A stretch of DNA of 64,000 bases. Origin: a virus. The stretch is from positions 45,769-109,768 of the IMG/VR virus record IMGVR_UViG_3300027869_000006; one strand, given 5' to 3'. The notes under the pieces were generated by a model that was given only the letters and a program-made list of their open reading frames with translations, was not told the origin of the DNA and did not search any database. Of the stretch, positions 2,850 through 32,506 are shown one piece after another. Position 1 is the first letter of the stretch, and each line of letters begins with the position of its first letter. Both the position numbers and the translations under genes were made by a program.

Positions 2850-5357
2850 ATGTCGTATACACTCTTACCAGGGCAGTCATTCTTGCCATCGGGCATTTCC
2901 AACTATGCGTTAGGCATGGTCACCACCGGCCCCTATCTCTCGCCGAACTTCCTGGACTCAAGCGCGATCCAAAGCCTGGTCAAGGCGGCAGGCACGACCG
3001 TGGTGCGTGTCTTCACCGATGACCTGGGCACAGACTCGGATGCGACACTCGACACCTACTACACCGCCATCACTAACGCGGGATGTGTGATGCTCGTGAA
3101 CCTGCAACATCCGTGGGATGACGCCCGCTGCCAGCATATCGTCACCCACTACGGGTCGCGCTGCTTGTTGTATGAATTTGGCAATGAACCAAGTCTCTAC
3201 ACGTCCCCAACGGTCTCAACCACGCAGTATAACTCGTACTGGACTACCACCATCCCGCATTTACGTTCGATTAACGCGGCGGCAGCGTACATGGGTCCGG
3301 CCATCATCGTGGGGGACCCTGGTGGCTACCTGTCCAGTTGGCTGACTGCCGTCGTTTCTTCGGGTATCCTCCCTGATGCCGTCAGCTTCCATATGTACTG
3401 CTCAGATACCTCGGAAACAAAGGAGATGGCACTTGCCGCCTATTACTATGTCTATACCGAGGATATCCGGCAGCAGGTGACGACGGCACTTGGACACGAG
3501 GTAGCGATCTGCCTGACGGAATGGAACTTCGATAGCGGGTTTCCCCCTGGCGCATGGGGGACTGATCCCACGTTCATGATCCCTTTCACAACGAACGCCT
3601 GGGGGGCTATCACAGCGGCAGGCCCGGCCCTTGCCTGCATCTTCAATATCTGTAGCGGCGCGGGTGGAGGTGGTGGCCTGCTTGACCTGATTGACTCGGT
3701 GACCCAGGCCCCACGTCCCAATGGGCAATACAGCACGCTTGCTAGCCTGTTTGCCGCTGCCCAGCATGCGCCGGTGACGCCACCGCCCGTGCCGATCAGC
3801 GCCTACGCTTCCGTCATCCAGGCTGATACGCCGCTCTGGTACGGACGCGGGGATAGCCGTGATGTGAGCGGGAACGCGCATAACGGCACGATGGTCGGGT
3901 ATGTCGAACTGGGGCAAGCCGGACTCCTGCCCTACGATCCGATGACGAGTATGAACTTCGGGGGCAGTGGCTATATCAGCGTGCCCACAGCTACCCTGCC
4001 AACGGGGGCGCATGCCTGGTCAATGGAATGCTGGTTCTTGTGGCCAACACTCGAGCTCACCAACTACGATGGCTTGATGGACATGGGAACACGCGTTTCT
4101 ACAGAAGAGGTCTCCTTCTATTACGACCAGGTGAGCGGCAAGCTCTCCAATGGGACATTTGGGGACGTGGACGTAGAAGCAACGCCAGCAGTCGTCGCGA
4201 ACCAGGTCTACTACGGGGTCATTACCTACGATGGAACGACGAGCACGATTGATCTGTACAGTTCGCTCGGGCGTGTGAGCACATCTGCTGCACGCACCAT
4301 CAACCTGGTCCAGACCCATGCAGGCATCGGGGGGACGGCGAATGTGGCCGTGCCGTTTACCGGGCGCGGGCAGGAGTTCGCCTTCTATGGCTACGCGCTT
4401 TCGGGAACGCAGAAAGCGGCCCACTACGCGGCAGGCACGACACCGCCGCCGCCATCCTTTGGGTATGCGAACTACAAAAACATCATTGAACCCAACCTGG
4501 TGGCGGCACTTGCCGCGAAGAATCTCTTGAACGTGGTTTCCCTCATCGGGCCGGAAACGACGATGCAAAATGATGCCTGGCTCAGCAGTGCCGCCGCCGA
4601 TCTCTCCGGCACGCTGGAAGGCTACATCCGGCATGCTTTCCCGACGGGTGCCACCGATATCAGCAGTGGGGGCATTGAGGTGGCAATGGATACTCTGGTT
4701 CCGACCATCTTAGCGCATGACCCAACAGGCATCGTCCTGCAGGGTGAGATGGGGTCGGGCTACTACGGGCCTGGGCCGCAAGTCGCGGGCTATCAGTACG
4801 GCGTCGAAATGACCGATTTCGCGGTGCAGTTGGCACGTGCGAAGATGAGTGCCTTCATCGCCTACCTCCTCGACGATGACATGACGGGCACCATGTGGGG
4901 CATGTGGAAGCTCACCGATCCACTGGGCGGCGCTCCACTGCGTCCCTGGTTCTTCCCATGGTCGCTCTTGTGCAAGAGCATTGCCGAGGGAAGCACGCTC
5001 TACGCGCCAGCACAGCCCTCGACCAATGATCTGCGGGTGCTGGCGGCAGAGAGCCCACAAGGGGCCTGGACGTTTGTGCTCGTCAATCGTGCTGGTGGCG
5101 CCCGTACTCTCCGGCTGTCCGTTCCATTCGCGCCACCAGCCACTCAGACCTTGCAGCAGTACATCTATGCAGAGGCCGTGCCACGCGTAGTGGATGGCAA
5201 TGGCTTCCCGCTACCGGCAGGGACGATCACCGCGAACCTGGCGCGTGGGTTCAGCGTACCGATGGCGGGCAATTCCGTGCTCATTTTGACGCAGCAGACG
5301 GCGACGCAAACCACGATCTATAACGTGAAGCGTCCACCCCTTCAGAAACGGAGATAG
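2850..5357 (+). CDS. Multi-domain clan GH-A glycoside hydrolase plus LamG-like domain (tail/receptor-binding protein)
   Basis: YEFGNEP, VSFHMY and CLTEWN motifs; LamG-like WSMECW...YYGVITYDG; C-terminal half of a second GH barrel; AGGAGG RBS. Confidence 0.7.
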   Translation: MSYTLLPGQSFLPSGISNYALGMVTTGPYLSPNFLDSSAIQSLVKAAGTTVVRVFTDDLGTDSDATLDTYYTAITNAGCVMLVNLQHPWDDARCQHIVTHYGSRCLLYEFGNEPSLYTSPTVSTTQYNSYWTTTIPHLRSINAAAAYMGPAIIVGDPGGYLSSWLTAVVSSGILPDAVSFHMYCSDTSETKEMALAAYYYVYTEDIRQQVTTALGHEVAICLTEWNFDSGFPPGAWGTDPTFMIPFTTNAWGAITAAGPALACIFNICSGAGGGGGLLDLIDSVTQAPRPNGQYSTLASLFAAAQHAPVTPPPVPISAYASVIQADTPLWYGRGDSRDVSGNAHNGTMVGYVELGQAGLLPYDPMTSMNFGGSGYISVPTATLPTGAHAWSMECWFLWPTLELTNYDGLMDMGTRVSTEEVSFYYDQVSGKLSNGTFGDVDVEATPAVVANQVYYGVITYDGTTSTIDLYSSLGRVSTSAARTINLVQTHAGIGGTANVAVPFTGRGQEFAFYGYALSGTQKAAHYAAGTTPPPPSFGYANYKNIIEPNLVAALAAKNLLNVVSLIGPETTMQNDAWLSSAAADLSGTLEGYIRHAFPTGATDISSGGIEVAMDTLVPTILAHDPTGIVLQGEMGSGYYGPGPQVAGYQYGVEMTDFAVQLARAKMSAFIAYLLDDDMTGTMWGMWKLTDPLGGAPLRPWFFPWSLLCKSIAEGSTLYAPAQPSTNDLRVLAAESPQGAWTFVLVNRAGGARTLRLSVPFAPPATQTLQQYIYAEAVPRVVDGNGFPLPAGTITANLARGFSVPMAGNSVLILTQQTATQTTIYNVKRPPLQKRR

Positions 5358-5391
5358 TGACCACGTCAGAACAAGGCGAGAGGAGAGAGAG

Positions 5392-5985
5392 ATGCCACCA
5401 CAAGAAGAGTCGAGTCGAGTACTGGGTTCGCAAGACATCCGGCCAATCCCAGACCCGACCGTGCTCACAACGGCAGCGAGTCTGCGGTTGGAGGAGATGC
5501 TACGCAACTTGATACAAGTAGAGATAGCGCACCAGGCTGCCTTGTTTACTGAGAAACTAGCGACCATCGAGACAAAGTTTGAGACACGGTTTGCGATGCT
5601 TGATACCCGCACCGCCGAGCAGAAGAAAGACACGAAAGATGCTCTAGACGCGGCACTTTCCGCAGCCAAAGAAGCCGTCGCCTCGCAAACGGCTGCCAGC
5701 GAGAAGAGCATCACCAAATCAGAGACGGCGACGATTGAGCGGATTAAGGCAGTCGAAACACTGCTCGCTACCTCAACCAAGGCGTCAGACGATAAGAGCG
5801 ATGACTTGAAAAGCCGCATCGTCGCCATTGAGGCGGTGAAACTCGGCAATATGGAACAGACCACCGCGCAACGTGAGCGAGGTCTGGAGACACGTGGCAG
5901 CATGGCCAGCGTCATGAGTATTGTGATGGCCGTGATCGCCGTTGCCAGCATTATTATTGCGATTATTGTTGTACTCAAACCATAA
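5392..5985 (+). CDS. Coiled-coil protein with C-terminal transmembrane helix
   Basis: Helical K/E/A-rich body, hydrophobic C-terminus, RBS. Confidence 0.65.
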   Translation: MPPQEESSRVLGSQDIRPIPDPTVLTTAASLRLEEMLRNLIQVEIAHQAALFTEKLATIETKFETRFAMLDTRTAEQKKDTKDALDAALSAAKEAVASQTAASEKSITKSETATIERIKAVETLLATSTKASDDKSDDLKSRIVAIEAVKLGNMEQTTAQRERGLETRGSMASVMSIVMAVIAVASIIIAIIVVLKP

Positions 5986-10321: not shown

Positions 10322-11562
10322 GTCAAATACCCCATGAATAAATTCAGGGGCTTGCAGCTAGGCGCGTCCTGCTACAGTAGGCACTTTGACGGGTGCCCGA
10401 GAGATATTGATGGCAGCATTGATGTCAGCGTTCATCGACATGCCGCACTTGACACAACAGAAGGAGACTTGACTCTTGCGGTTCTCTTTCGCACAGTGCC
10501 CACAAGCAGAGCACGTTCGAGACGTATTGCGGGGGTCTACCGTGTGTAACGACACACCAGCAAGAGCAGCCTTATACGAGAGGAATTGACGAAGTTAAGC
10601 AAAGGCCCAGGATGTAAAGCGATTGCGCTGAGAACGTCTAACCGTGCTATCGGTGCGTTTCCGAATGTGCCTGAGTTCTTCAATCGCTATTCCTTGTTTG
10701 TTGGCCTTTGCTTTCGCAATGATCCGTTTGGAGATCACATGATTGGTATTGCGCTTGAACCTGGCTTCTTTGCCAGAGAGCTTCTTGAGATGCCGTTTGG
10801 CGGATTTCGTGCCGCGCTTTTGCAAACGTTGACGCAAGGCGTGCATACGTGTACGCACCTTCTCAACCTGCTCACCGCTAAAGGTGTCCCCGTCACTGTC
10901 GGTCGCCAGGTTGACGATGCCAAGATCGATGCCAAGCGTCTCAGTCACTTCATCGGGCGTAGGTTCTGGAACATCAAGCGTGACAGCCAGGTAGAAGGTA
11001 CCATCACGCCAAATCAAATCGGCCTGTCCTTTGATCTTGTCCATACGGGCTTGCTGATAGCCACCAATGCGGAAGGGCACAAGTACCCGTCCAGTGGTTG
11101 TCAAGAGGGAAACGGTAGTGAGTCCTTTGAAGGACATCACGCGGGGATCATAGACAATGGCACCTCTGGCATCAAACGTTGGCATGATACTCTTGTCGCG
11201 CTTGTAGGCTTCGGTCGCTTTGCTAATACAGCGGATGGCGAGTTGAGCAGGCAGATTGTACCACTTGCGCAAATAGCCATAGACCAGCTTTTGCAGTGCA
11301 AACTTATTGGCACTCTTCTCCAGAAAGGCGATTTGCGCCACATAGTTTGCCCCTGCATTGAAGCAATCCATCGTCAACAACAAGGCTTTGTATTGTTCTT
11401 CAGTTGGGGCAAGCTTCAAGAGCATCGTTTGTTTCATAGACATATTGTAGCATCATTGATGAAAGTTGTCAATAGGCGAGATGATACCCAACCCATCTTG
11501 CCCATAAGGAAGGGCTTGCTTACCCCATGCTTAAAAGACAGGGACTTCCGCAAGCCCGATTG
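10322..11562 (-). mobile_element. IS200/IS605-family (IS1341-type, tnpB-only) insertion sequence
   Basis: Minus-strand left end TCAC|CAATCGGGCTTGCGGAAGTCCCTGTCTTTTAAGCATGGGGTAAGCAAGCCC; right end GCAAGCCCCTGAATTTATTCATGGGGTATTTGAC; related subterminal hairpins; no tnpA. Confidence 0.8.
10358..11443 (-). pseudogene. tnpB: TnpB RNA-guided nuclease with in-frame premature stop
   Basis: LGIDLG (RuvC-I), IAIEEL (RuvC-II), then SWAFA-TAA(10595-10597)-LRQFLSYKA...CSACG...CVKCG...ADINAAINI in the same frame. Confidence 0.88.
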
Positions 11563-12658: not shown

Positions 12659-12792
12659 AGTGGTTTTTCAGATGGGTCCATCAAGTGATGTCTTTGTTAC
12701 ACAAGAGGCGCAGCTATAGCGAAACGATCCTGGCTGAGAAGCCGATCCGTTACTATCGACTCGATGGAAGTGACACAACACGTGAGCAATGA
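12655..12792 (+). CDS. 45-aa ORF carrying only the N-terminal motif of the LamG modules
   Basis: ATGA overlap with endolysin stop; YSETILAEKPIRYYRLD resembles YRTTILADNPLYYNRAG and YASVIQADTPLWYGRGD in the tail genes. Confidence 0.45.
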   Translation: MKWFFRWVHQVMSLLHKRRSYSETILAEKPIRYYRLDGSDTTREQ

Positions 12793-13507
12793 AGAGTGCA
12801 AACTGATTGCATACCAACTCTATGATGGTGATCTCCCCATGCAAATCGTTCCGGCACCGCGCAAACGGCAGTGGATGGATCAGACGCCACAGAGTTTTGC
12901 GAACCGTTGCCTCCCGCTCTTACTGGGAAATGCGAGCGGCTGGTGGCTCTTGAACACGCACGAGATACAGGTGACCTGGAACGGCGGCACTGATCTCTCC
13001 GCGCTCACCATCGCGGGTCGGGGTAGTTCGGAGACCGGCTATGCACTGAGCCATTTTGGTAACGGTCTCTTAACTTGGAATATTCCCCTGCTCTTTTCCA
13101 CGCCCCCTGGATATAATTTGCTGGTACGTGGCCCTGCAAACTGGCCCAAAGACGGGGCATACGCACTGGACGGGCTTGTGGAGACAGATCACGCTGTGGC
13201 GACATGGACCATGAACTGGAAGATGACGCGGCCTGGCCTGACCGTCACCTTTGCCAAGGGCGAACCGATAGCACAAATCGTGCCACAGAAGCGTGGAGAA
13301 CTAGAGACATTCACCCCGCAAGTACGGAACATCAGAGAGGCACCAGAGTTACAAGCTGCATACAATGCGTGGGCATCTAGTCGCTCAACATTCAATATGG
13401 AACTGAAGAGACCAGGGTCAGAGGCAGTGAAGCGGCAATGGCAAAAGGATTACTTCCAAGCATCCCATCAAACAAAGGTCGCATTGAAGGAGTTCACAAC
13501 TCCATGA
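12764..13507 (+). CDS. DUF6065-family protein
   Basis: RQWMDQT..FANRCLPL..GN..GW, SHFGNG, GPANWPKDG, GLVETD, TMNWKMTRPG. Confidence 0.75.
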   Translation: MEVTQHVSNEECKLIAYQLYDGDLPMQIVPAPRKRQWMDQTPQSFANRCLPLLLGNASGWWLLNTHEIQVTWNGGTDLSALTIAGRGSSETGYALSHFGNGLLTWNIPLLFSTPPGYNLLVRGPANWPKDGAYALDGLVETDHAVATWTMNWKMTRPGLTVTFAKGEPIAQIVPQKRGELETFTPQVRNIREAPELQAAYNAWASSRSTFNMELKRPGSEAVKRQWQKDYFQASHQTKVALKEFTTP

Positions 13508-13543: not shown

Positions 13544-14128
13544 ATGGCAACGACACCGACAAAAACCCCGAAGCAGCAAGCCTCACTCGCAGGCGTCTGG
13601 CAGGGCATTGAGGCACCAATCATCGGTATCCTCCTCTCCCTTGCCGTAGCTATTCAGCAGTATTTTAGTACCCATAGTGCCCCAAATTGGGGAGAACTGG
13701 GAATGATCCTGTTCCCGACCGTCATTGTTGGTATTGTGCAAGCACTCAAGCAGTTCAATGCAACACTCGGGCAGGCATCAGTTCCCATCGTCACCGTCCC
13801 GCCGCCCGCACCGGTTGTCTCACCATCCGACATTGCGGCAGCGATACGACAGCAGGTACCAGGACTGGTCATACAACAGCCACCGGCACCACCGTCGTTC
13901 ATTGCGCCGTCAGTGCCACCAGGAGGATACGATACGACGCTGGTCCAACCCCTCTCATTCGCCCCTCTGACCACGCCTGCCCAGCCACAACAACCGTACA
14001 CGTGGTCACAGCCAGAACCATCCCCGACACTCACGACACCTGCGCCAGTAATTACGCCGGTATTGTCACTGCCAAGTACGTTTCCGCAAACACTCGATTT
14101 ACCAATCGTACGACCACAAATTGAGTAA
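13544..14128 (+). CDS. Holin-like membrane protein (2 TM) with Pro/Thr-rich tail
   Basis: Two TM segments, GGAGG RBS, located in the lysis region. Confidence 0.6.
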   Translation: MATTPTKTPKQQASLAGVWQGIEAPIIGILLSLAVAIQQYFSTHSAPNWGELGMILFPTVIVGIVQALKQFNATLGQASVPIVTVPPPAPVVSPSDIAAAIRQQVPGLVIQQPPAPPSFIAPSVPPGGYDTTLVQPLSFAPLTTPAQPQQPYTWSQPEPSPTLTTPAPVITPVLSLPSTFPQTLDLPIVRPQIE

Positions 14129-14129
14129 T

Positions 14130-14167
14130 AATAAAGGGTACTACATCTGCATGTAGTACCCTTTATT
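14130..14167. terminator. Bidirectional intrinsic terminator
   Basis: Perfect 17-bp stem AATAAAGGGTACTACAT-CTGC-ATGTAGTACCCTTTATT between convergent transcription units. Confidence 0.85.
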
Positions 14168-14170
14168 CAT

Positions 14171-14363
14171 CCCATACCATACCGCATCCCGCCGGACTGC
14201 ACCCCACCCAGCCTTGCCAGACATTACCCCGCATCGCCACGCCTTACCCCACCGAACTACACCTTACCAACCAGACCATGCCGAACCCGACCGGACCACG
14301 CTATACCGTACCTTACCTTACTGAACCCAGCCAAGCCGGACCTCACCATACCTACCGTGCCAT
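14171..14363 (-). ncRNA. Pentamer array A (NN-GGY units; putative gapped-code guide RNAs)
   Basis: Plus strand parses as RCC-NN: 19 units (14171-14265), 4-nt break, 16 units (14270-14349), 4-nt break, 2 units. Confidence 0.75.
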
Positions 14364-14581
14364 TAAGCGTATCGTGTTTGGTCTGTCTCCCAGTTCACTA
14401 AACGTACAGGTGTCACATCTAAGTCTGTGATAGGAATGCCATACTTTTCTTCAGCTAAACTCAGTCCTTCCTGAGCATCACTAGCGGTTATCTCACCCAC
14501 TATAGGCACCTGCTGCTTTCTTAGCTTGGCATGCACGGTAGTGTCATGTCCCTTATACCAAACATCGAACCTATGCAACAT
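14363..14581 (-). CDS. 72-aa accessory protein translationally coupled to the RAMP gene
   Basis: TAATG stop/start overlap at 14583-14579; stop abuts array A. Confidence 0.65.
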   Translation of the reverse strand: MLHRFDVWYKGHDTTVHAKLRKQQVPIVGEITASDAQEGLSLAEEKYGIPITDLDVTPVRLVNWETDQTRYA

Positions 14582-15129
14582 TACTTCACCTTTTCCCATG
14601 ACACAAGAGCAAATCTCCCATACGGCCCTTTCTTTGCAGGACGGAAGTCACCAATGCCAACAAGTCGCCCTGCATCGGTGAGTATGTCACGGATAAGACG
14701 TTCACCAACTAGATCGGTATCAATCTGAACATCAAACTCCATATTCCACTCATCGAACATTGGCCTGTGGCGTAGAATACGCCCCCCAGTCGCTTTAATG
14801 ACAACAGCCCGTGAGTCCACATGCCATTCCCCTACCAGAGGAATTTCAAATGGGCTAACATAGACCCCTGCCGCTACATCAGTTGTCGCAGCCCTCCGTC
14901 CAATTTTGTGTCGTGATGCTGCTGCAATCATTGACTGCCGAATATTCTCAGCCGGATAGAATGGGCTATGTTCATTGGTATACAGGCGACTTGCCGCATC
15001 TTCATGAGGAGCCGGATATTCTTTCCGACCATGTGTTCCTGAAGTTGCTTCCTCTGCCGCTGCCTCATGAAAACGATTCACGATGAGCGGCGTCAAACTC
15101 GTAATGTTGACCTTGTACGTTACAATCAT
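14581..15129 (-). CDS. Stand-alone Cas7/RAMP-like RNA-binding protein (Vipr-like), 182 aa
   Basis: N-terminal strand YKVNITSLTPLIV, PAENIRQSM helix, thumb-like DSRAVVIKATGGRILRHRPMF, C-terminal Gly-rich loop AGRLVGIGDFRPAKKGPYGRF; GAAAGGA RBS before ATG 15129; flanked by pentamer arrays. Confidence 0.75.
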   Translation of the reverse strand: MIVTYKVNITSLTPLIVNRFHEAAAEEATSGTHGRKEYPAPHEDAASRLYTNEHSPFYPAENIRQSMIAAASRHKIGRRAATTDVAAGVYVSPFEIPLVGEWHVDSRAVVIKATGGRILRHRPMFDEWNMEFDVQIDTDLVGERLIRDILTDAGRLVGIGDFRPAKKGPYGRFALVSWEKVK

Positions 15130-15160
15130 GTGTGTTATCCTTTCTGTGTGAGTAACTTGT

Positions 15161-15192
15161 GTGGTGCCCTGCCCCAGTGGTAGGGCTACCAC
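15161..15192 (-). promoter_or_regulatory. GC-rich hairpin between array B and the RAMP gene (RNA 3' end, processing or attenuation element)
   Basis: GTGGT-GCCCTGCC-CCAGT-GGTAGGGC-TACCAC. Confidence 0.5.
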
Positions 15193-15211
15193 GCGAAACA
15201 AAATGAACAAA

Positions 15212-15604
15212 ACCATACCAGACCGGACCTCGCCAAACCCGGCCTTGCCAGACCGGGCCTTGCCAGACCGGGCCAAACCCGACTACACTAGACCTCATCA
15301 TGCCACACCTCCCATACCATACCCATCCTTACCGAACTGCGCCAGACCGCAACGTACCAGACCGCGGCAAGCCGGGCCGGACCCAACCTAACCTATTCCT
15401 CAGCAAACCATGCTATACCCCACCTGACCGTAGCACTCCTTCCAAACCGCACCATACCCAACCAAGCAGGACCCCGCGTCACCGCACCTGATCGGGCCAT
15501 ACCCCACCTGACCAAGCCGTGCCTACCTTGCCGCACCAAACCTCACCTCACTCAGTCTTGCCTCGCTGGACCTAGTCGCACCGAACCTGACCTTGCCGTG
15601 CCAT
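15212..15604 (-). ncRNA. Pentamer array B (NN-GGY units; putative gapped-code guide RNAs)
   Basis: Segments of 19 (15212-15306), 16 (15311-15390), 8 (15397-15436), 16 (15441-15520) and 16 (15525-15604) RCC-NN units, separated by 4-nt (one 6-nt) phase breaks. Confidence 0.75.
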
Positions 15605-16237
15605 AATCCTGCTATAGGCCAATTTCACGCAGAACTCAACGTCATTCCATACCTGGGAGCCAGTGAAGCGAAGAACGTACCAGCCTTGATCTTCAATCGT
15701 ATGCTGTCGCATATAGTCTCTATTTCGGTCTCTCTTGTGACTATGGAACGCTTGCCCATCAAGTTCGATTACTATCTTTGCTTCAACATGGGCAAAGTCT
15801 ACACGATACTTACTAATCCGATGCTGTCGCTCAAGAGGGATATCTGGATACAGCAGGCACCATGCTTCATAAAAGGCTTCCTCGATGGGACTTCCATTCT
15901 TGACGGATTGCTGAATTTCCCGTAAACGATTACGAGCCTCATTAAGTGCAGCCTCACGTTGTTGATTAGCAAGTCGCAAGGCTTCTACTCGCTCTGCTTC
16001 TAGTGCTTGACGACGTTCTAGGGCCTGCTCTCGCTTCTCCCGAATGGTTGCTACTTCAATCTCTCTCTGGACAGATTGCTGATGCTCATTCGCACGACGC
16101 TTCAACTCCCTAGCTTCCTGAATCATACTAGCTTTCTCTGCCGCAAGTTGACGTTGTATGGCAAGTTCATGCTCTCTGTCAGCTTGAAGTTTTCGTTGTT
16201 GTTCTTGATAGTCGTTGAATGCTTGCCAGTCCATCAT
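15572..16237 (-). CDS. DUF559/Vsr-like PD-(D/E)XK endonuclease with long N-terminal coiled coil
   Basis: SPIEEAFY, ERQHRISKYRVDF, IVIELDG..FH, RDYMRQ..IEDQGWYVLRFTGSQV; the last codons overlap array B. Confidence 0.85.
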   Translation of the reverse strand: MMDWQAFNDYQEQQRKLQADREHELAIQRQLAAEKASMIQEARELKRRANEHQQSVQREIEVATIREKREQALERRQALEAERVEALRLANQQREAALNEARNRLREIQQSVKNGSPIEEAFYEAWCLLYPDIPLERQHRISKYRVDFAHVEAKIVIELDGQAFHSHKRDRNRDYMRQHTIEDQGWYVLRFTGSQVWNDVEFCVKLAYSRIMARQGQVRCD

Positions 16238-16239
16238 GC

Positions 16240-16413
16240 TTATTGTTCTCGTTTTGTAGGCTTTTGCTGTTTCTGTTGTACTCGTTCTAATTCTTGGTTC
16301 GCTAAACGGTCAAGAAGACTCACGATACTCTCCCCTGTGATGGCATGAAGCATACGCAAGGTGGTAAGTGTCCTTGTCCAGATGCGAGTTGTTTTGTAGT
16401 CATCGGTAGCCAT
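16240..16413 (-). CDS. 57-aa ribbon-helix-helix-like regulator (not in the ORF track)
   Basis: MATDDYKTTRIWTRTLTTLRMLHAITGESIVSLLDRLANQELERVQQKQQKPTKREQ; strand-helix-helix pattern; leaderless start 6 nt after the -10 box. Confidence 0.6.
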   Translation of the reverse strand: MATDDYKTTRIWTRTLTTLRMLHAITGESIVSLLDRLANQELERVQQKQQKPTKREQ

Positions 16414-16419
16414 GAAGTT

Positions 16420-16448
16420 ATTTTACTACAAACAAGTGTTCTTGTCAA
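16420..16448 (-). promoter_or_regulatory. Sigma70-type promoter of the RAMP/array operon
   Basis: TTGACA-17 nt-TAAAAT on the minus strand. Confidence 0.8.
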
Positions 16449-16508
16449 GAGGAAAAGAAGACGCCCTTGACACAAGCATATACTAAGAGCAGAAGGGGGA
16501 ATTTTTCT

Positions 16509-17069
16509 TTGGAACGCGGGTCCGTTATTCTTTTTGAGAAGGATGGCAGTCTCTTCAATTGGCTCATCACGAAAGCAACTCATGGTCCCTATGTCCATGT
16601 GGAAATTTGCCTGGGCGAGGAACGCCTGATCGGTGCTCACGGTAACCGTCGCGGCATCTATGAGCGTGATTGGGCCGATGCACCTTCGTTAGTGACGGAG
16701 GTCTCTCTCTCCCCCTATGCCGATGAAGAGCACATCGAGCAGGCCCTTACCTGGGCGCAAGAGCAACAGGGGCATCCCTATGGATGGTGGGATATCGCCA
16801 GTCAGTCCATCAAGTTCTTGTGGCCAACGACACCGCTCCGGTTCAGCAAGTCAGACGCATGGGGGTGTGCAGACTATGTGACCCGCTATCTGATACAAGC
16901 AGGGGTGGCCTTGCCAGAAGACTTCATGGACCCTGGGAAAAACTCGCCCAACGATATTGGACGGTTGTTCCATCTCGTTCCACAACGGCCACAACGCATC
17001 AGAAAACGGGAGAGAGAGTTGAGGAAAGGTCATGCCATTGCCGCATTTGCCGCCTCCAGACGAGGATGA
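16509..17069 (+). CDS. Permuted papain-like amidase (YiiX/YebB, NlpC/P60 superfamily)
   Basis: G-S-V-I-L-F start motif, His in YVHVEI precedes Cys in WGCADYV, GHPYGW, SPND; AAGGGGG RBS before TTG 16509. Confidence 0.75.
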   Translation: MERGSVILFEKDGSLFNWLITKATHGPYVHVEICLGEERLIGAHGNRRGIYERDWADAPSLVTEVSLSPYADEEHIEQALTWAQEQQGHPYGWWDIASQSIKFLWPTTPLRFSKSDAWGCADYVTRYLIQAGVALPEDFMDPGKNSPNDIGRLFHLVPQRPQRIRKRERELRKGHAIAAFAASRRG

Positions 17070-30551: not shown

Positions 30552-30628
30552 CGTATGATTGTTCATGAAGGATTGAGAGAGAGACCCCTGGCCCCGTGTG
30601 CTGGCGCCTGCCCCTGCAGGTGGTGTGG

Positions 30629-30985
30629 TCATGGTGTCTGCTCCTGTTCTGTGCTGTCCCTTCCTCCTACCCAGCGCTGCGGACTCGTCACCATTACCGT
30701 GACATCATCGGCCAGGAGAGGACATCCTACCTCATCGAGTGTCGCGTCCACTTCTGCCTCGCTGAGAGAGAAGGTGCGTGCAATATGCTGGACCATCCGT
30801 GTGCGCTGCTCCGGTGTGAGCGTGGTGAGATCGACCTGGTAAAACAGGCCAGCCTCGACACCAGGCGCCTGTGCCCATACTGGAATGGGTGAGAGGATCG
30901 GCACCATTCTCCCACCGAAGACGCGCATCCAAGCGACTGCTCGCTCGCTTGTCTCGCGGATGGTCGCTATATACTCATTACTCAT
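30629..30985 (-). CDS. Hypothetical protein
   Basis: Coupled ORF with RBS. Confidence 0.55.
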   Translation of the reverse strand: MSNEYIATIRETSERAVAWMRVFGGRMVPILSPIPVWAQAPGVEAGLFYQVDLTTLTPEQRTRMVQHIARTFSLSEAEVDATLDEVGCPLLADDVTVMVTSPQRWVGGRDSTEQEQTP

Positions 30986-31413: not shown

Positions 31414-32506
31414 GGCATATCCTCTAGGCTTGTTTTGACTTCCCACAGTTCGGCCATGATTGCACGTGCCTCTGCTTCCTCCTCGGCCTCTGTTCGCTGT
31501 AATTCCCACAGCACCTCTTGTGGGGGAGCAGGCCAACCCCGTGCCTGTCTCACCGGATCAACATCTTCGGGTCGGTGGAAGGTGACGATGAGTTTGACCC
31601 GTTTCTTCTGCTTGCCAATGATCTCGAGTCGTTGGCTATAGAGCATGACCCCGATGCGACCAGGAACCTCTTGCTGTTTCTCATGACTGTAGGTGGCAGG
31701 CCACACTTGCCAGAGCCAGCCACGGGTTGGTTCCCAGATACGCGCTTGCCCATAGAGCGGGAGCGAGGGAATGACCTCGACTTCGCCGACCTCGTGGCCC
31801 AGATACCAGCTCTGGGTGCGGGCAGTAGAGGCATATCTCTGGACGGTGGCCTGCTGCCTTTCAAGTAATGTCAGGGGCATGGTGTCTCTCCCTCGCTTTC
31901 CTCTTCCGGTGTTGCGGGCAGGGGATGTTCGATGAAGTCACGTATGCGCAGCCAGGCACAGAAGACGGCTGGTTGAATGTGAAACCCACTCAACTCTGTG
32001 AGGAGATCGAAGAGAGGAGACAGATGAGGCAAGGCATGCCACTGCTCCTCGGCAATCTCAAGGAACGCGGTAAGGTGTCCATTGTGGACACCTAAGTCAT
32101 ACCAGATGAGAGCGAGAGAGAAATCATGGTCATCCTCCTCGCTCGTGATGAAGACCTTGTGCCGGATGTTCCCGACCGGCCAGGGGACGCTCGTGAAATA
32201 CAAGTGGTCACTCATAAAGTCTCTCCTTTACGTGCTTTGGCCATGCCGACCAACGTCTCGTGTTCGCGTGCCAGCCACACGAGTGCGTGCAGTGCCTCTT
32301 CTGGCGAGAGGAAGAGATAGCCATACTCAACACTCTCGATGAGAATGCCGTCGCCACCTGGGGCGTAACGCAGGGTGTAACGGTTCTTGGGTACTGTGCG
32401 TTTGGGTGTGGTCATGGGAGTTGCCCATTCCAGGGTTCGTAGAGGAGCAGGTGACCGGGGAGGTACCACACGGCCCATGGCCCTACAATGATGTAATACA
32501 TGAGAG

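What the first reader, a model, noticed from the sequence alone, without database searches (positions are those of the whole stretch)
14057..16553. Self-avoidance by Ser/Leu codon-family swaps and a possible RNA-guided homing cassette
Seen: where the decoded guides and the resident genes agree on Ser or Leu, the resident gene uses the other codon family in 6 of 7 cases (guide AG/TT/TC/TT versus TCA, CTG, AGT, CTC in A1; TT/TC versus CTT, AGT in A2). Established: apart from Arg, these are the only synonymous changes at codon positions 1-2, so they are the only silent escape from a wobble-skipping guide. Free-standing homing endonucleases (e.g. T4 Seg enzymes) spread by cutting polymorphic sites in neighbouring genes of cassette-less relatives. 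Inference: the guides direct the DUF559 nuclease to both flanks of the empty locus in a co-infecting relative, giving exclusion and/or copying of the cassette, while the recoded resident flanks are immune. Caveat: AG could be Arg and TT could be Phe.
Basis: inference. Interest (0 to 1): 0.92.

Follow-up and report, generated by a model that had tools for sequence, protein, structure and literature searches.

The report
VIPR guides aimed at neighbour-gene alleles
This soil phage carries a VIPR system, a CRISPR-like RNA-guided DNA binder first described in 2026, and two of its guide RNAs spell variant versions of the two genes on either side of the cassette, so it probably attacks sibling phages while its own mismatched copies stay safe; spread by homing is not shown.

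Summary
The cassette (window 14130-16450, minus strand) is a VIPR locus. It holds a Cas7-like Vipr protein, staggered GGY-NN guide arrays and a DUF559 nuclease gene, with its own promoter and terminator.

The two guides of array A1 are real protein-level images of the end of the left gene and the start of the right gene. They are the top hits genome-wide, and 0 of 3000 shuffles reach them. The resident copies match only 63-67% of guide letters, below the published 80% target threshold.

Across 86 VIPR loci, near-matches to a locus's own neighbours are enriched 18-fold (P=3e-6). In one relative (L097) the guide matches 22/26 letters of a cassette-free sibling's flank gene (L111).

The 6-of-7 Ser/Leu count is correct but weak: P=0.24 under independent codon choice, 0.003 against real homologue pairs. 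Most mismatches change the amino acid, and the validated pair shows no local recoding.

Homing and guide-dependent cutting are untested, and no cassette-free relative of this phage was found. This scan has noted the same weapon-beside-immune-allele pattern on other DNA.

The parts
13544..14128 (+). Left flank gene ('holin-like': hydrophobic N-terminal half and a Pro/Thr/Ser-rich tail). It follows an amidase and a DUF6065 gene. The near-cognate guide site lies at 14057-14095, 33 nt before the stop.
   Evidence: ORF. No Pfam, PHROG or NCBIfam hit and no homologue in 5.8 billion proteins. The site matches guide A1a at 7/13 dinucleotides, 17/26 letters and 11/13 compatible residues; the next best anywhere in the window is 7/13.
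14130..14167 (.). Perfect 17-nt inverted repeat. It probably acts as a two-way terminator, ending both the left gene and the cassette transcript.
   Evidence: I1, 100% complementary, 4-nt loop
14164..14268 (-). vrRNA A1a: about 20 GGY-NN units. The first 13 units in RNA sense (14268 down to 14204) spell a variant of the left gene's end. The 3' units are degenerate and end in a motif (GGTAT GGTAT GGGA) also seen at 15329-15310.
   Evidence: score 57 genome-wide best, next 46; 0/3000 shuffles reach it
14268..14352 (-). vrRNA A1b: 17 units, joined to A1a by a 1-nt overlap (staggered array). Fifteen units spell a variant of the first 15 codons of the right gene. The unit facing the resident TTG start reads ATG.
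   Evidence: score 58, next 40; 0/3000 shuffles reach it
14363..14599 (-). Small ORF (78 aa) after vipr. It has no family and is not conserved in relatives.
14581..15129 (-). vipr: a 182-aa stand-alone RAMP/Cas7-like protein.
   Evidence: phrog_4652. 120 homologues. AF2 model pLDDT 87. Foldseek matches Csm3/Cas7 at E 2e-7. tblastn matches Felix-O1-type phages including SUSP2 at E 3e-6.
15185..15602 (-). Array A2: five staggered runs of 25, 16, 7, 16 and 16 GGY-NN units. Their targets are unknown.
   Evidence: For the two A1 runs and three of the five A2 runs no self match reaches 80% at full length or over 12 units; the exception is a 12/14 match of the 7-unit run. The runs 15439-15518 and 15523-15602 were not scored, because the script crashed.
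15572..16237 (-). Accessory gene: an N-terminal coiled-coil-like charged half plus a C-terminal DUF559 (Vsr-like) nuclease domain.
   Evidence: Pfam PF04480 at E 1e-15 and PF18741 at E 4e-12. Conserved beside vipr in L001, L002, L081, L083 and L084, with 29 invariant columns that include the D-F-x-H and I-E-L-D-G motifs.
16240..16413 (-). Small first ORF of the cassette (57 aa), unassigned.
16420..16448 (-). Promoter-like site (TTGACA, 17 nt spacer, TAAAAT; 11 of 12 matches) that would drive the cassette.
16509..17069 (+). It has a TTG start at 16509 behind a G-rich ribosome site. The near-cognate guide site is 16509-16553.
   Evidence: the database gene call starts at this TTG; only 4 homologues at 40-48% identity. 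Guide A1b matches 6/15 dinucleotides and about 20/30 letters.

Best explanation
The cassette is a VIPR locus of a clade that carries a DUF559 nuclease gene. Shown elsewhere: Vipr protomers polymerise on GGY-NN guide RNAs. Each NN pairs with two target bases and every third target base is skipped, usually the codon wobble base. Inferred here: the two 3'-terminal guides (A1b and A1a) are tuned to variant alleles of the two genes that flank the cassette, as carried by sibling phages. The phage's own copies differ at about a third of the guide-read letters, by amino-acid changes and by Ser/Leu family switches, so they fall below the match needed for binding. Weapon and immune alleles are therefore tightly linked. 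Recombination in a mixed infection cannot easily separate them. The likely outcome is exclusion of siblings that carry the sensitive alleles, by silencing, or by cleavage if the DUF559 protein is recruited.
For: Membership: the Cas7-like fold; GGY-NN arrays on the gene's strand, found nowhere else in the 110-kb genome and beside the homologue in nearly all of 80 viral loci; the published rule. Flank link: A1a and A1b give the two best hits in the whole genome in six frames, both in frame, both on the sense strand and in genomic order. 0/3000 unit shuffles reach them. The matches start at the 5' unit of each staggered guide. Replication: the terminal guide of L083 matches its adjacent holin-like gene at 11/13 residues. 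That guide is 98% identical in L084 and Vipr is 98% identical, yet the holin-like gene is only 56% identical. Family-wide: scores >=52 occur in 9/282 guides against their own neighbourhoods and in 3/1692 against other loci's neighbourhoods, P=3e-6. Direct case: the L097 guide matches the cassette-free sibling allele in L111 at 22/26 letters, at the homologous site of the flanking AAA_24 gene. No self match reaches 80% in the five guide runs scored, as published.
Against: No allele matching A1a or A1b was found anywhere, so the targets of this phage's own guides are inferred, not seen. The closest DUF559-bearing relatives, L001 and L002, show no flank match. Silencing a holin-like gene or a small enzyme of a co-infecting sibling has no obvious benefit, because those products act in trans. 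Expression and processing of the guides are not shown here.
Confidence: 0.7

Rival explanations
1. RNA-guided homing. Vipr-guide complexes bring the DUF559 nuclease to both flanks of the empty site in a sibling genome. The break is repaired from the cassette-bearing genome, which copies in the cassette and its immune flanks.
For: A nuclease gene with intact conserved motifs is fixed beside vipr in six loci of this clade. The two guides bracket the insertion point in genomic order. The module sits in different neighbourhoods in relatives: lysis genes here and in L083/L084, replication genes in L001, an integrase in L002. A presence/absence polymorphism with a guide-matched empty-site allele exists for another VIPR cassette, L097/L111. 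The layout mirrors free-standing homing endonucleases of T4 (my own knowledge).
Against: No cleavage, recruitment or transfer is shown. The one validated cassette-free case (L097) has no nuclease gene next to vipr. No empty-site relative of this phage was found. L083 and L084 share a near-identical vipr and guide but have very different flank alleles, whereas homing with co-conversion would tend to make them alike.
Confidence: 0.2
2. Self-regulation. The partly matching guides dampen the phage's own flanking genes, for example to time lysis.
For: The sites lie at a start codon and near a gene end, next to the cassette. Over a 12-unit stretch the terminal guide of L083 reaches 20/24 letters on its own neighbour.
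Against: The resident matches here are 63-67% of letters. Published natural targets are >=80%, and disturbing NN pairing abolished silencing. In L097 the guide fits the sibling's allele better than its own.
Confidence: 0.06
3. Chance resemblance, or guides that are decayed copies of neighbouring sequence with no present target.
For: At the plain nucleotide level many equal or better 3-periodic matches occur elsewhere in the window. Fifty-nine other loci gave no own-flank signal with the cruder scores.
Against: 0/3000 shuffles reach the observed scores, and the hits are the genome-wide top. The pattern is enriched family-wide at P=3e-6. The L097 guide is an exact 11-unit match to a sibling allele, not to its own.
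Confidence: 0.04

Closest known systems
VIPR systems (Vipr + vrRNA + vap). The experimental exemplars are the type II systems of Escherichia phage SUSP1 and a Pseudomonas fulva prophage (bioRxiv 10.64898/2026.04.26.720920, .720927 and 10.64898/2026.10.15.759431).
   Same: A small stand-alone RAMP protein. GGY-NN pentamer guide arrays on both sides of the gene. Staggered arrays with 1-nt overlaps. A target read with one skipped base that falls on the codon wobble position. Phage-borne and aimed at other mobile elements. No self match of 80% or more.
   Different: The accessory gene is a DUF559/Vsr-like nuclease with a coiled-coil arm. The term DUF559 does not occur in the discovery preprint. 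Two guides mirror the genes that flank the cassette itself. The words allele and homing do not occur in the October preprint, and homing does not occur in the discovery preprint. Nothing here is shown experimentally.
Nuclease-bearing VIPR types III and V (same discovery preprint)
   Same: Vipr is combined with a predicted DNA nuclease, which suggests target destruction rather than silencing.
   Different: Those types are described as enriched in host defence islands and aimed at viruses, with an HNH example shown. This locus lies in a 110-kb virus genome beside lysis genes, and its nuclease is DUF559. I could not assign a type because the classification tables are not held.
Free-standing homing endonucleases of T4-like phages (Seg and Mob enzymes; my own knowledge)
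   Same: A selfish cassette sits between conserved genes. The recognition site lies in a neighbouring gene of relatives that lack the cassette. The resident allele is protected by polymorphisms.
   Different: Recognition here would be by a programmable RNA filament, not by the nuclease protein. Cleavage and co-conversion have not been observed.
Cas7/Csm3 backbone of type III and type VII CRISPR complexes
   Same: The fold is shared (Foldseek E 2e-7, TM about 0.55). The protein polymerises on a guide with periodic base displacement.
   Different: There is no CRISPR repeat-spacer array and there are no other cas genes. The guide has a 5-nt period and the target a 3-nt period. Sequence identity is only 10-15%.

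Membership tests
VIPR system | Small stand-alone RAMP (Cas7-like) Vipr protein | tested here: met
   182 aa. AF2 pLDDT 87. Csm3/Cas7 are the top Foldseek hits at E 2e-7. tblastn matches the SUSP2/Felix-O1-type phage protein at E 3e-6.
VIPR system | Tandem GGY-NN pentamer arrays on the vipr strand, flanking the gene | tested here: met
   Lag-5 autocorrelation is 0.5 against 0.25 background, and these are the only such places in the genome. The same layout is seen in relatives.
VIPR system | Guides of roughly 9-16 units with defined ends (tail, or staggered 1-nt overlaps) | tested here: inconclusive
   Runs of 16-25 units are separated by 4-nt junctions that fit the published staggered type. No RNA data are available: the only run holding this DNA is the source metagenome, held as contigs.
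VIPR system | Targets follow the 1-nt skip rule at >=80% NN match, with the skip on the wobble base | tested here: inconclusive
   For this phage only 63-67% in-frame near-matches to its own flanks were found, and no natural target. In the relative L097 the rule is met: 22/26, in frame, in L111.
VIPR system | An accessory (vap) gene in the operon | tested here: met
   A DUF559 gene lies upstream of the array and vipr, and is conserved in six loci. Whether it equals one of vap1-6 cannot be told.
DUF559 / Vsr-like nuclease (PF04480) | Pfam match above the gathering score, with conserved acidic and His motifs | tested here: met
   57.6 bits against a cut-off of 20.6. D147, H150, E158, D160 and H165 are invariant in six clade members. 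No solved structure is found by sequence. Activity is not tested.
Free-standing homing endonuclease cassette | The cassette is absent from close relatives, at the same site | not testable with these tools
   The left gene has no homologue and the right gene only 40-48% ones. No empty-site contig is in the one run that holds it. It is shown only for another VIPR cassette, L097 against L111.
Free-standing homing endonuclease cassette | The nuclease cuts the cassette-free allele of a neighbouring gene, and the resident allele is resistant | not tested
   Only the layout fits: near-cognate sites in both flanks. This needs an interference assay.
Free-standing homing endonuclease cassette | The cassette is copied into the cut genome, with co-conversion of flanks | not testable with these tools
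   This needs mixed-infection crosses.

The most novel reading that the evidence does not exclude
The DUF559-bearing VIPR clade is an RNA-guided homing element. Guides that read the empty-site alleles on both sides of the insertion point bring a Vsr-like nuclease to a sibling genome, and repair copies in the cassette with its immune flank alleles. Six-fold codon switches in the resident flanks would then be selected escape marks.
Probability: 0.18. Interest if true: 0.9.

Novelty: new variant of a known kind. Interest (0 to 1): 0.55.

Why it matters
VIPR has so far been shown to silence satellites, prophages and rival VIPR loci. This locus, the family-wide enrichment and the L097/L111 pair point to a further, selfish logic. 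A guide sits next to the phage's own mismatched copy of the gene that it attacks in siblings. That makes a linked weapon-and-immunity unit, much like free-standing homing endonucleases. A nuclease partner in a phage-borne locus makes RNA-guided exclusion or homing directly testable. It also shows that searches for self-targets at an 80% cut-off miss informative near-cognate self sites, and that these sites can be used to predict a guide's real target gene.

Tried and rejected
- Plain nucleotide scoring of 3-periodic matches: the flank hits are not outliers. Only residue-aware scoring separates them.
- Reading each unit as a codon NNR, and 13-unit compatibility counts, on 59 loci: no own-flank excess. 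These scores were too crude, and the NN-set score later showed the excess.
- TRAP-like spacer and G-quadruplex readings of the pentamers: dropped once the VIPR papers were found.
- Natural targets of A1a, A1b and the L083 guide by exact 11-unit patterns in viral contigs: none. The L063 guide: none.
- Close relatives of the flank genes: viral contigs gave none, GenBank phages gave none for the right gene, and the protein collection gave none that were close.
- Other loci's guides against this genome: nothing at >=21/24. Two 20/24 hits come from clade members.
- The sequencing run holding the locus: only the source contig was found, with no joint that skips the cassette.
- Complex prediction of Vipr with the DUF559 protein: no verdict.
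- The genome search does not draw relatives for a virus record.
- No target-site duplication at the cassette ends.
Full report
WHAT IS THERE. The window belongs to a single 109,768-base virus record. Between a left gene (13544-14128, +) and a right gene (16509-17069, +) lies a minus-strand unit with these parts:
- a promoter-like site at 16448-16420 (11 of 12 consensus matches);
- a 57-aa ORF;
- a DUF559 nuclease gene (15572-16237; Pfam E 1e-15);
- array A2 (15602-15185);
- a 182-aa gene (15129-14581);
- a 78-aa ORF;
- array A1 (14352-14164);
- a perfect 17-nt hairpin (14130-14167).

Both arrays have a strict 5-base period. Lag-5 identity is about 0.5 against a background of 0.25, and these are the only such places in the genome. 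On the gene's strand the unit is GGY-NN.

WHAT IT IS. The 182-aa protein has no Pfam family but belongs to phrog_4652. It has 120 homologues in the protein collection and 250 loci in viral contigs. In nearly every fetched locus the gene is flanked by the same pentamer arrays. Its AlphaFold model (pLDDT 87) matches Csm3/Cas7 of type III and type VII CRISPR complexes (Foldseek E 2e-7). It also shows weak sequence homology to a protein of Felix-O1-type phages, including SUSP2.

A literature search showed that this is the VIPR system, described in bioRxiv 10.64898/2026.04.26.720920.
- Vipr is a small RAMP.
- vrRNAs are GGY/NN repeats.
- NN pairs with double-stranded DNA while one base is skipped, and that base generally falls on the codon wobble position.
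- Natural targets are rival phages and satellites.
- Natural targets match at >=80% of NN positions, and no self-targets were found at that level.
- Cryo-EM structures explain the geometry of 5 bases on the RNA per 3 on the DNA (10.64898/2026.04.26.720927).
- The published 'staggered arrays', with 1-nt overlaps, fit the 4-nt junctions that separate runs of 16-25 units here.

THE LINK TO THE FLANKS IS REAL.
- Thirteen units (14204-14268) laid on 14057-14095 give 7/13 identical dinucleotides and 11/13 compatible residues. The next best site in 128 kb of both strands has 7/13.
- Each unit can be scored by the best BLOSUM value among the residues its NN can encode. On that score guide A1a reaches 57 at that site (next best in the 110-kb genome: 46).
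- Guide A1b reaches 58 at 16509-16553 (next best: 40).
- None of 3000 shuffles of unit order reaches either value within the two flank genes.
- Both hits are in frame, on the sense strand and in genomic order. Each starts at the 5' unit of its staggered guide.
- The unit facing the resident TTG start codon reads ATG.
- Plain nucleotide scoring does not single these sites out. The likeness is that of diverged alleles, not of a working self-target: 17/26 and about 20/30 guide letters match, below the published 80%.
- No other self match reaches 80% at full length for the five runs scored. The last two A2 runs were not scored because the script crashed.

IT RECURS.
- In L083, a relative with 66% Vipr identity and the same DUF559-array-vipr-array module next to an amidase and a holin-like gene, the terminal guide matches the adjacent holin-like gene at 11/13 residues and 24/34 letters.
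- L084 carries the same guide (98% identical) and a 98% identical Vipr, yet its holin-like gene is only 56% identical to that of L083. The endolysin next door is 81% identical.
- Across 86 non-redundant VIPR loci, guides score >=52 against their own +-1.5-kb neighbourhood in 9 of 282 cases. Against the neighbourhoods of other loci the count is 3 of 1692 (odds ratio 18.6, Fisher P=3e-6).
- The neighbours hit are ordinary phage genes: an SF2 helicase, an AAA_24 ATPase, a PDDEXK-like exonuclease and an SNase homologue.

A DIRECT CASE.
- An 11-unit pattern from the L097 guide has one exact match in 2.9 million viral contigs; my rough estimate of the number expected by chance is about 0.01.
- That match (L111) lies in frame in the orthologue (79% identity) of L097's own neighbouring AAA_24 gene, at the homologous site, with 22/26 guide letters.
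- In L111 the two flank genes abut, with no vipr and no arrays. In L097 about 1.25 kb of arrays plus vipr lies between them.
- The resident L097 allele matches 18/26. It differs from the sibling allele in the core by a Ser TCT-to-AGC switch, a Thr-to-Ser change and a Leu-to-Ile change.

THE CODON-SWITCH CLAIM.
- The count of 6 of 7 is exact.
- All four Leu cases have guide TT. This genome uses CTN for 82% of Leu, so three CTN partners are what is expected. With independent codon choice the whole pattern has P=0.24.
- Real homologue pairs of this clade at 43-75% identity switch family at 28-30% of conserved Leu/Ser. Against that baseline P=0.003.
- TT may stand for Phe and AG for Arg. Unambiguous cases over eight loci give 7 of 11 switches (P=0.02).
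- Of the 15 mismatched units here, 9 change the amino acid.
- In the validated pair the target window carries 4 mismatched letters in 11 codons, which is the gene-wide median. No local recoding is needed there. A guide may simply sit where two alleles already differ.
- I therefore read the switches as a weak, suggestive signal. Self-tolerance by mismatch is a logical need in a system without a PAM.

HOMING.
- In favour: a nuclease gene with invariant acidic and His motifs is fixed beside vipr in six loci. The guides bracket the insertion point. The module sits in different neighbourhoods in L001 (replication genes) and L002 (an integrase).
- Against or missing: there is no evidence of recruitment or cleavage. 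The validated cassette-free case has no nuclease. L083 and L084 share the cassette but not the flank allele. No relative of this phage lacks the cassette in any collection I could reach.
- The preprints state that nuclease-bearing types lie mostly in host defence islands. They do not mention DUF559 or homing.

VERDICT. This is a known kind of system in a new variant: a phage-borne VIPR locus with a DUF559 partner, whose two terminal guides mirror the cassette's own flanking genes. The sibling-allele reading is well supported. Silent recoding is weakly supported. Homing is open. Other agents of this scan reported the same weapon-beside-immune-allele layout on at least six other genomes. I did not check those reports.

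Noticed in passing
L083:1507-1557 (minus strand), against the L084 guide at L084:3583-3667: A guide of L084 matches 21/24 letters over 12 units (23/34 overall) of a site in L083. The site is in wobble register with a 150-aa plus-strand ORF (1292-1744), in a segment that L084 lacks. It is a possible case of one sibling aiming at another.
   Followed up: partly
Genome coordinates 31436-31480 (outside the window), against the L084 guide at L084:2898-2972: A relative's guide matches 22/30 letters, in frame, in a 1147-aa ORF of this phage. The two best hits of any foreign guide on this genome both come from the small DUF559 clade.
   Followed up: partly
L083:4119-4376 and L084:3797-4048: The holin-like gene is an island of divergence (55-67% nucleotide identity). 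It lies between a 92-100% identical vipr with a 98% identical terminal guide on one side and an 80-98% identical endolysin end on the other.
   Followed up: partly
L009:280-2275: About 2 kb holds some 15 guide modules. Each follows a TATAAT-like box and ends in a T run, so they look like separate small transcription units.
   Followed up: no
window 15218-15274: A 15-nt higher-order repeat (3.8 copies, 85% matches) lies inside array A2. Guide units seem to multiply by local duplication.
   Followed up: no
window 10595-11443 (minus strand): A 282-aa ORF just upstream of the amidase looks like the N-terminal part of a TnpB/IS605 OrfB-type protein. This is judged by eye and was not run against any library.
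   Followed up: no
window 12764-13507: A DUF6065 protein (Pfam E 8e-84) sits between the amidase and the holin-like gene. Its role in a lysis module is unknown.
   Followed up: no
control comparisons: A few guides scored very high against unrelated loci (11/13 for an L101 guide; a score of 66 for a 14-unit guide). These may be true cross-targets rather than noise.
   Followed up: no
window 5356-5466 and 30618-30743: Weak 5-base periodicity (0.44) lies away from the cassette. Solo guides were not excluded.
   Followed up: no
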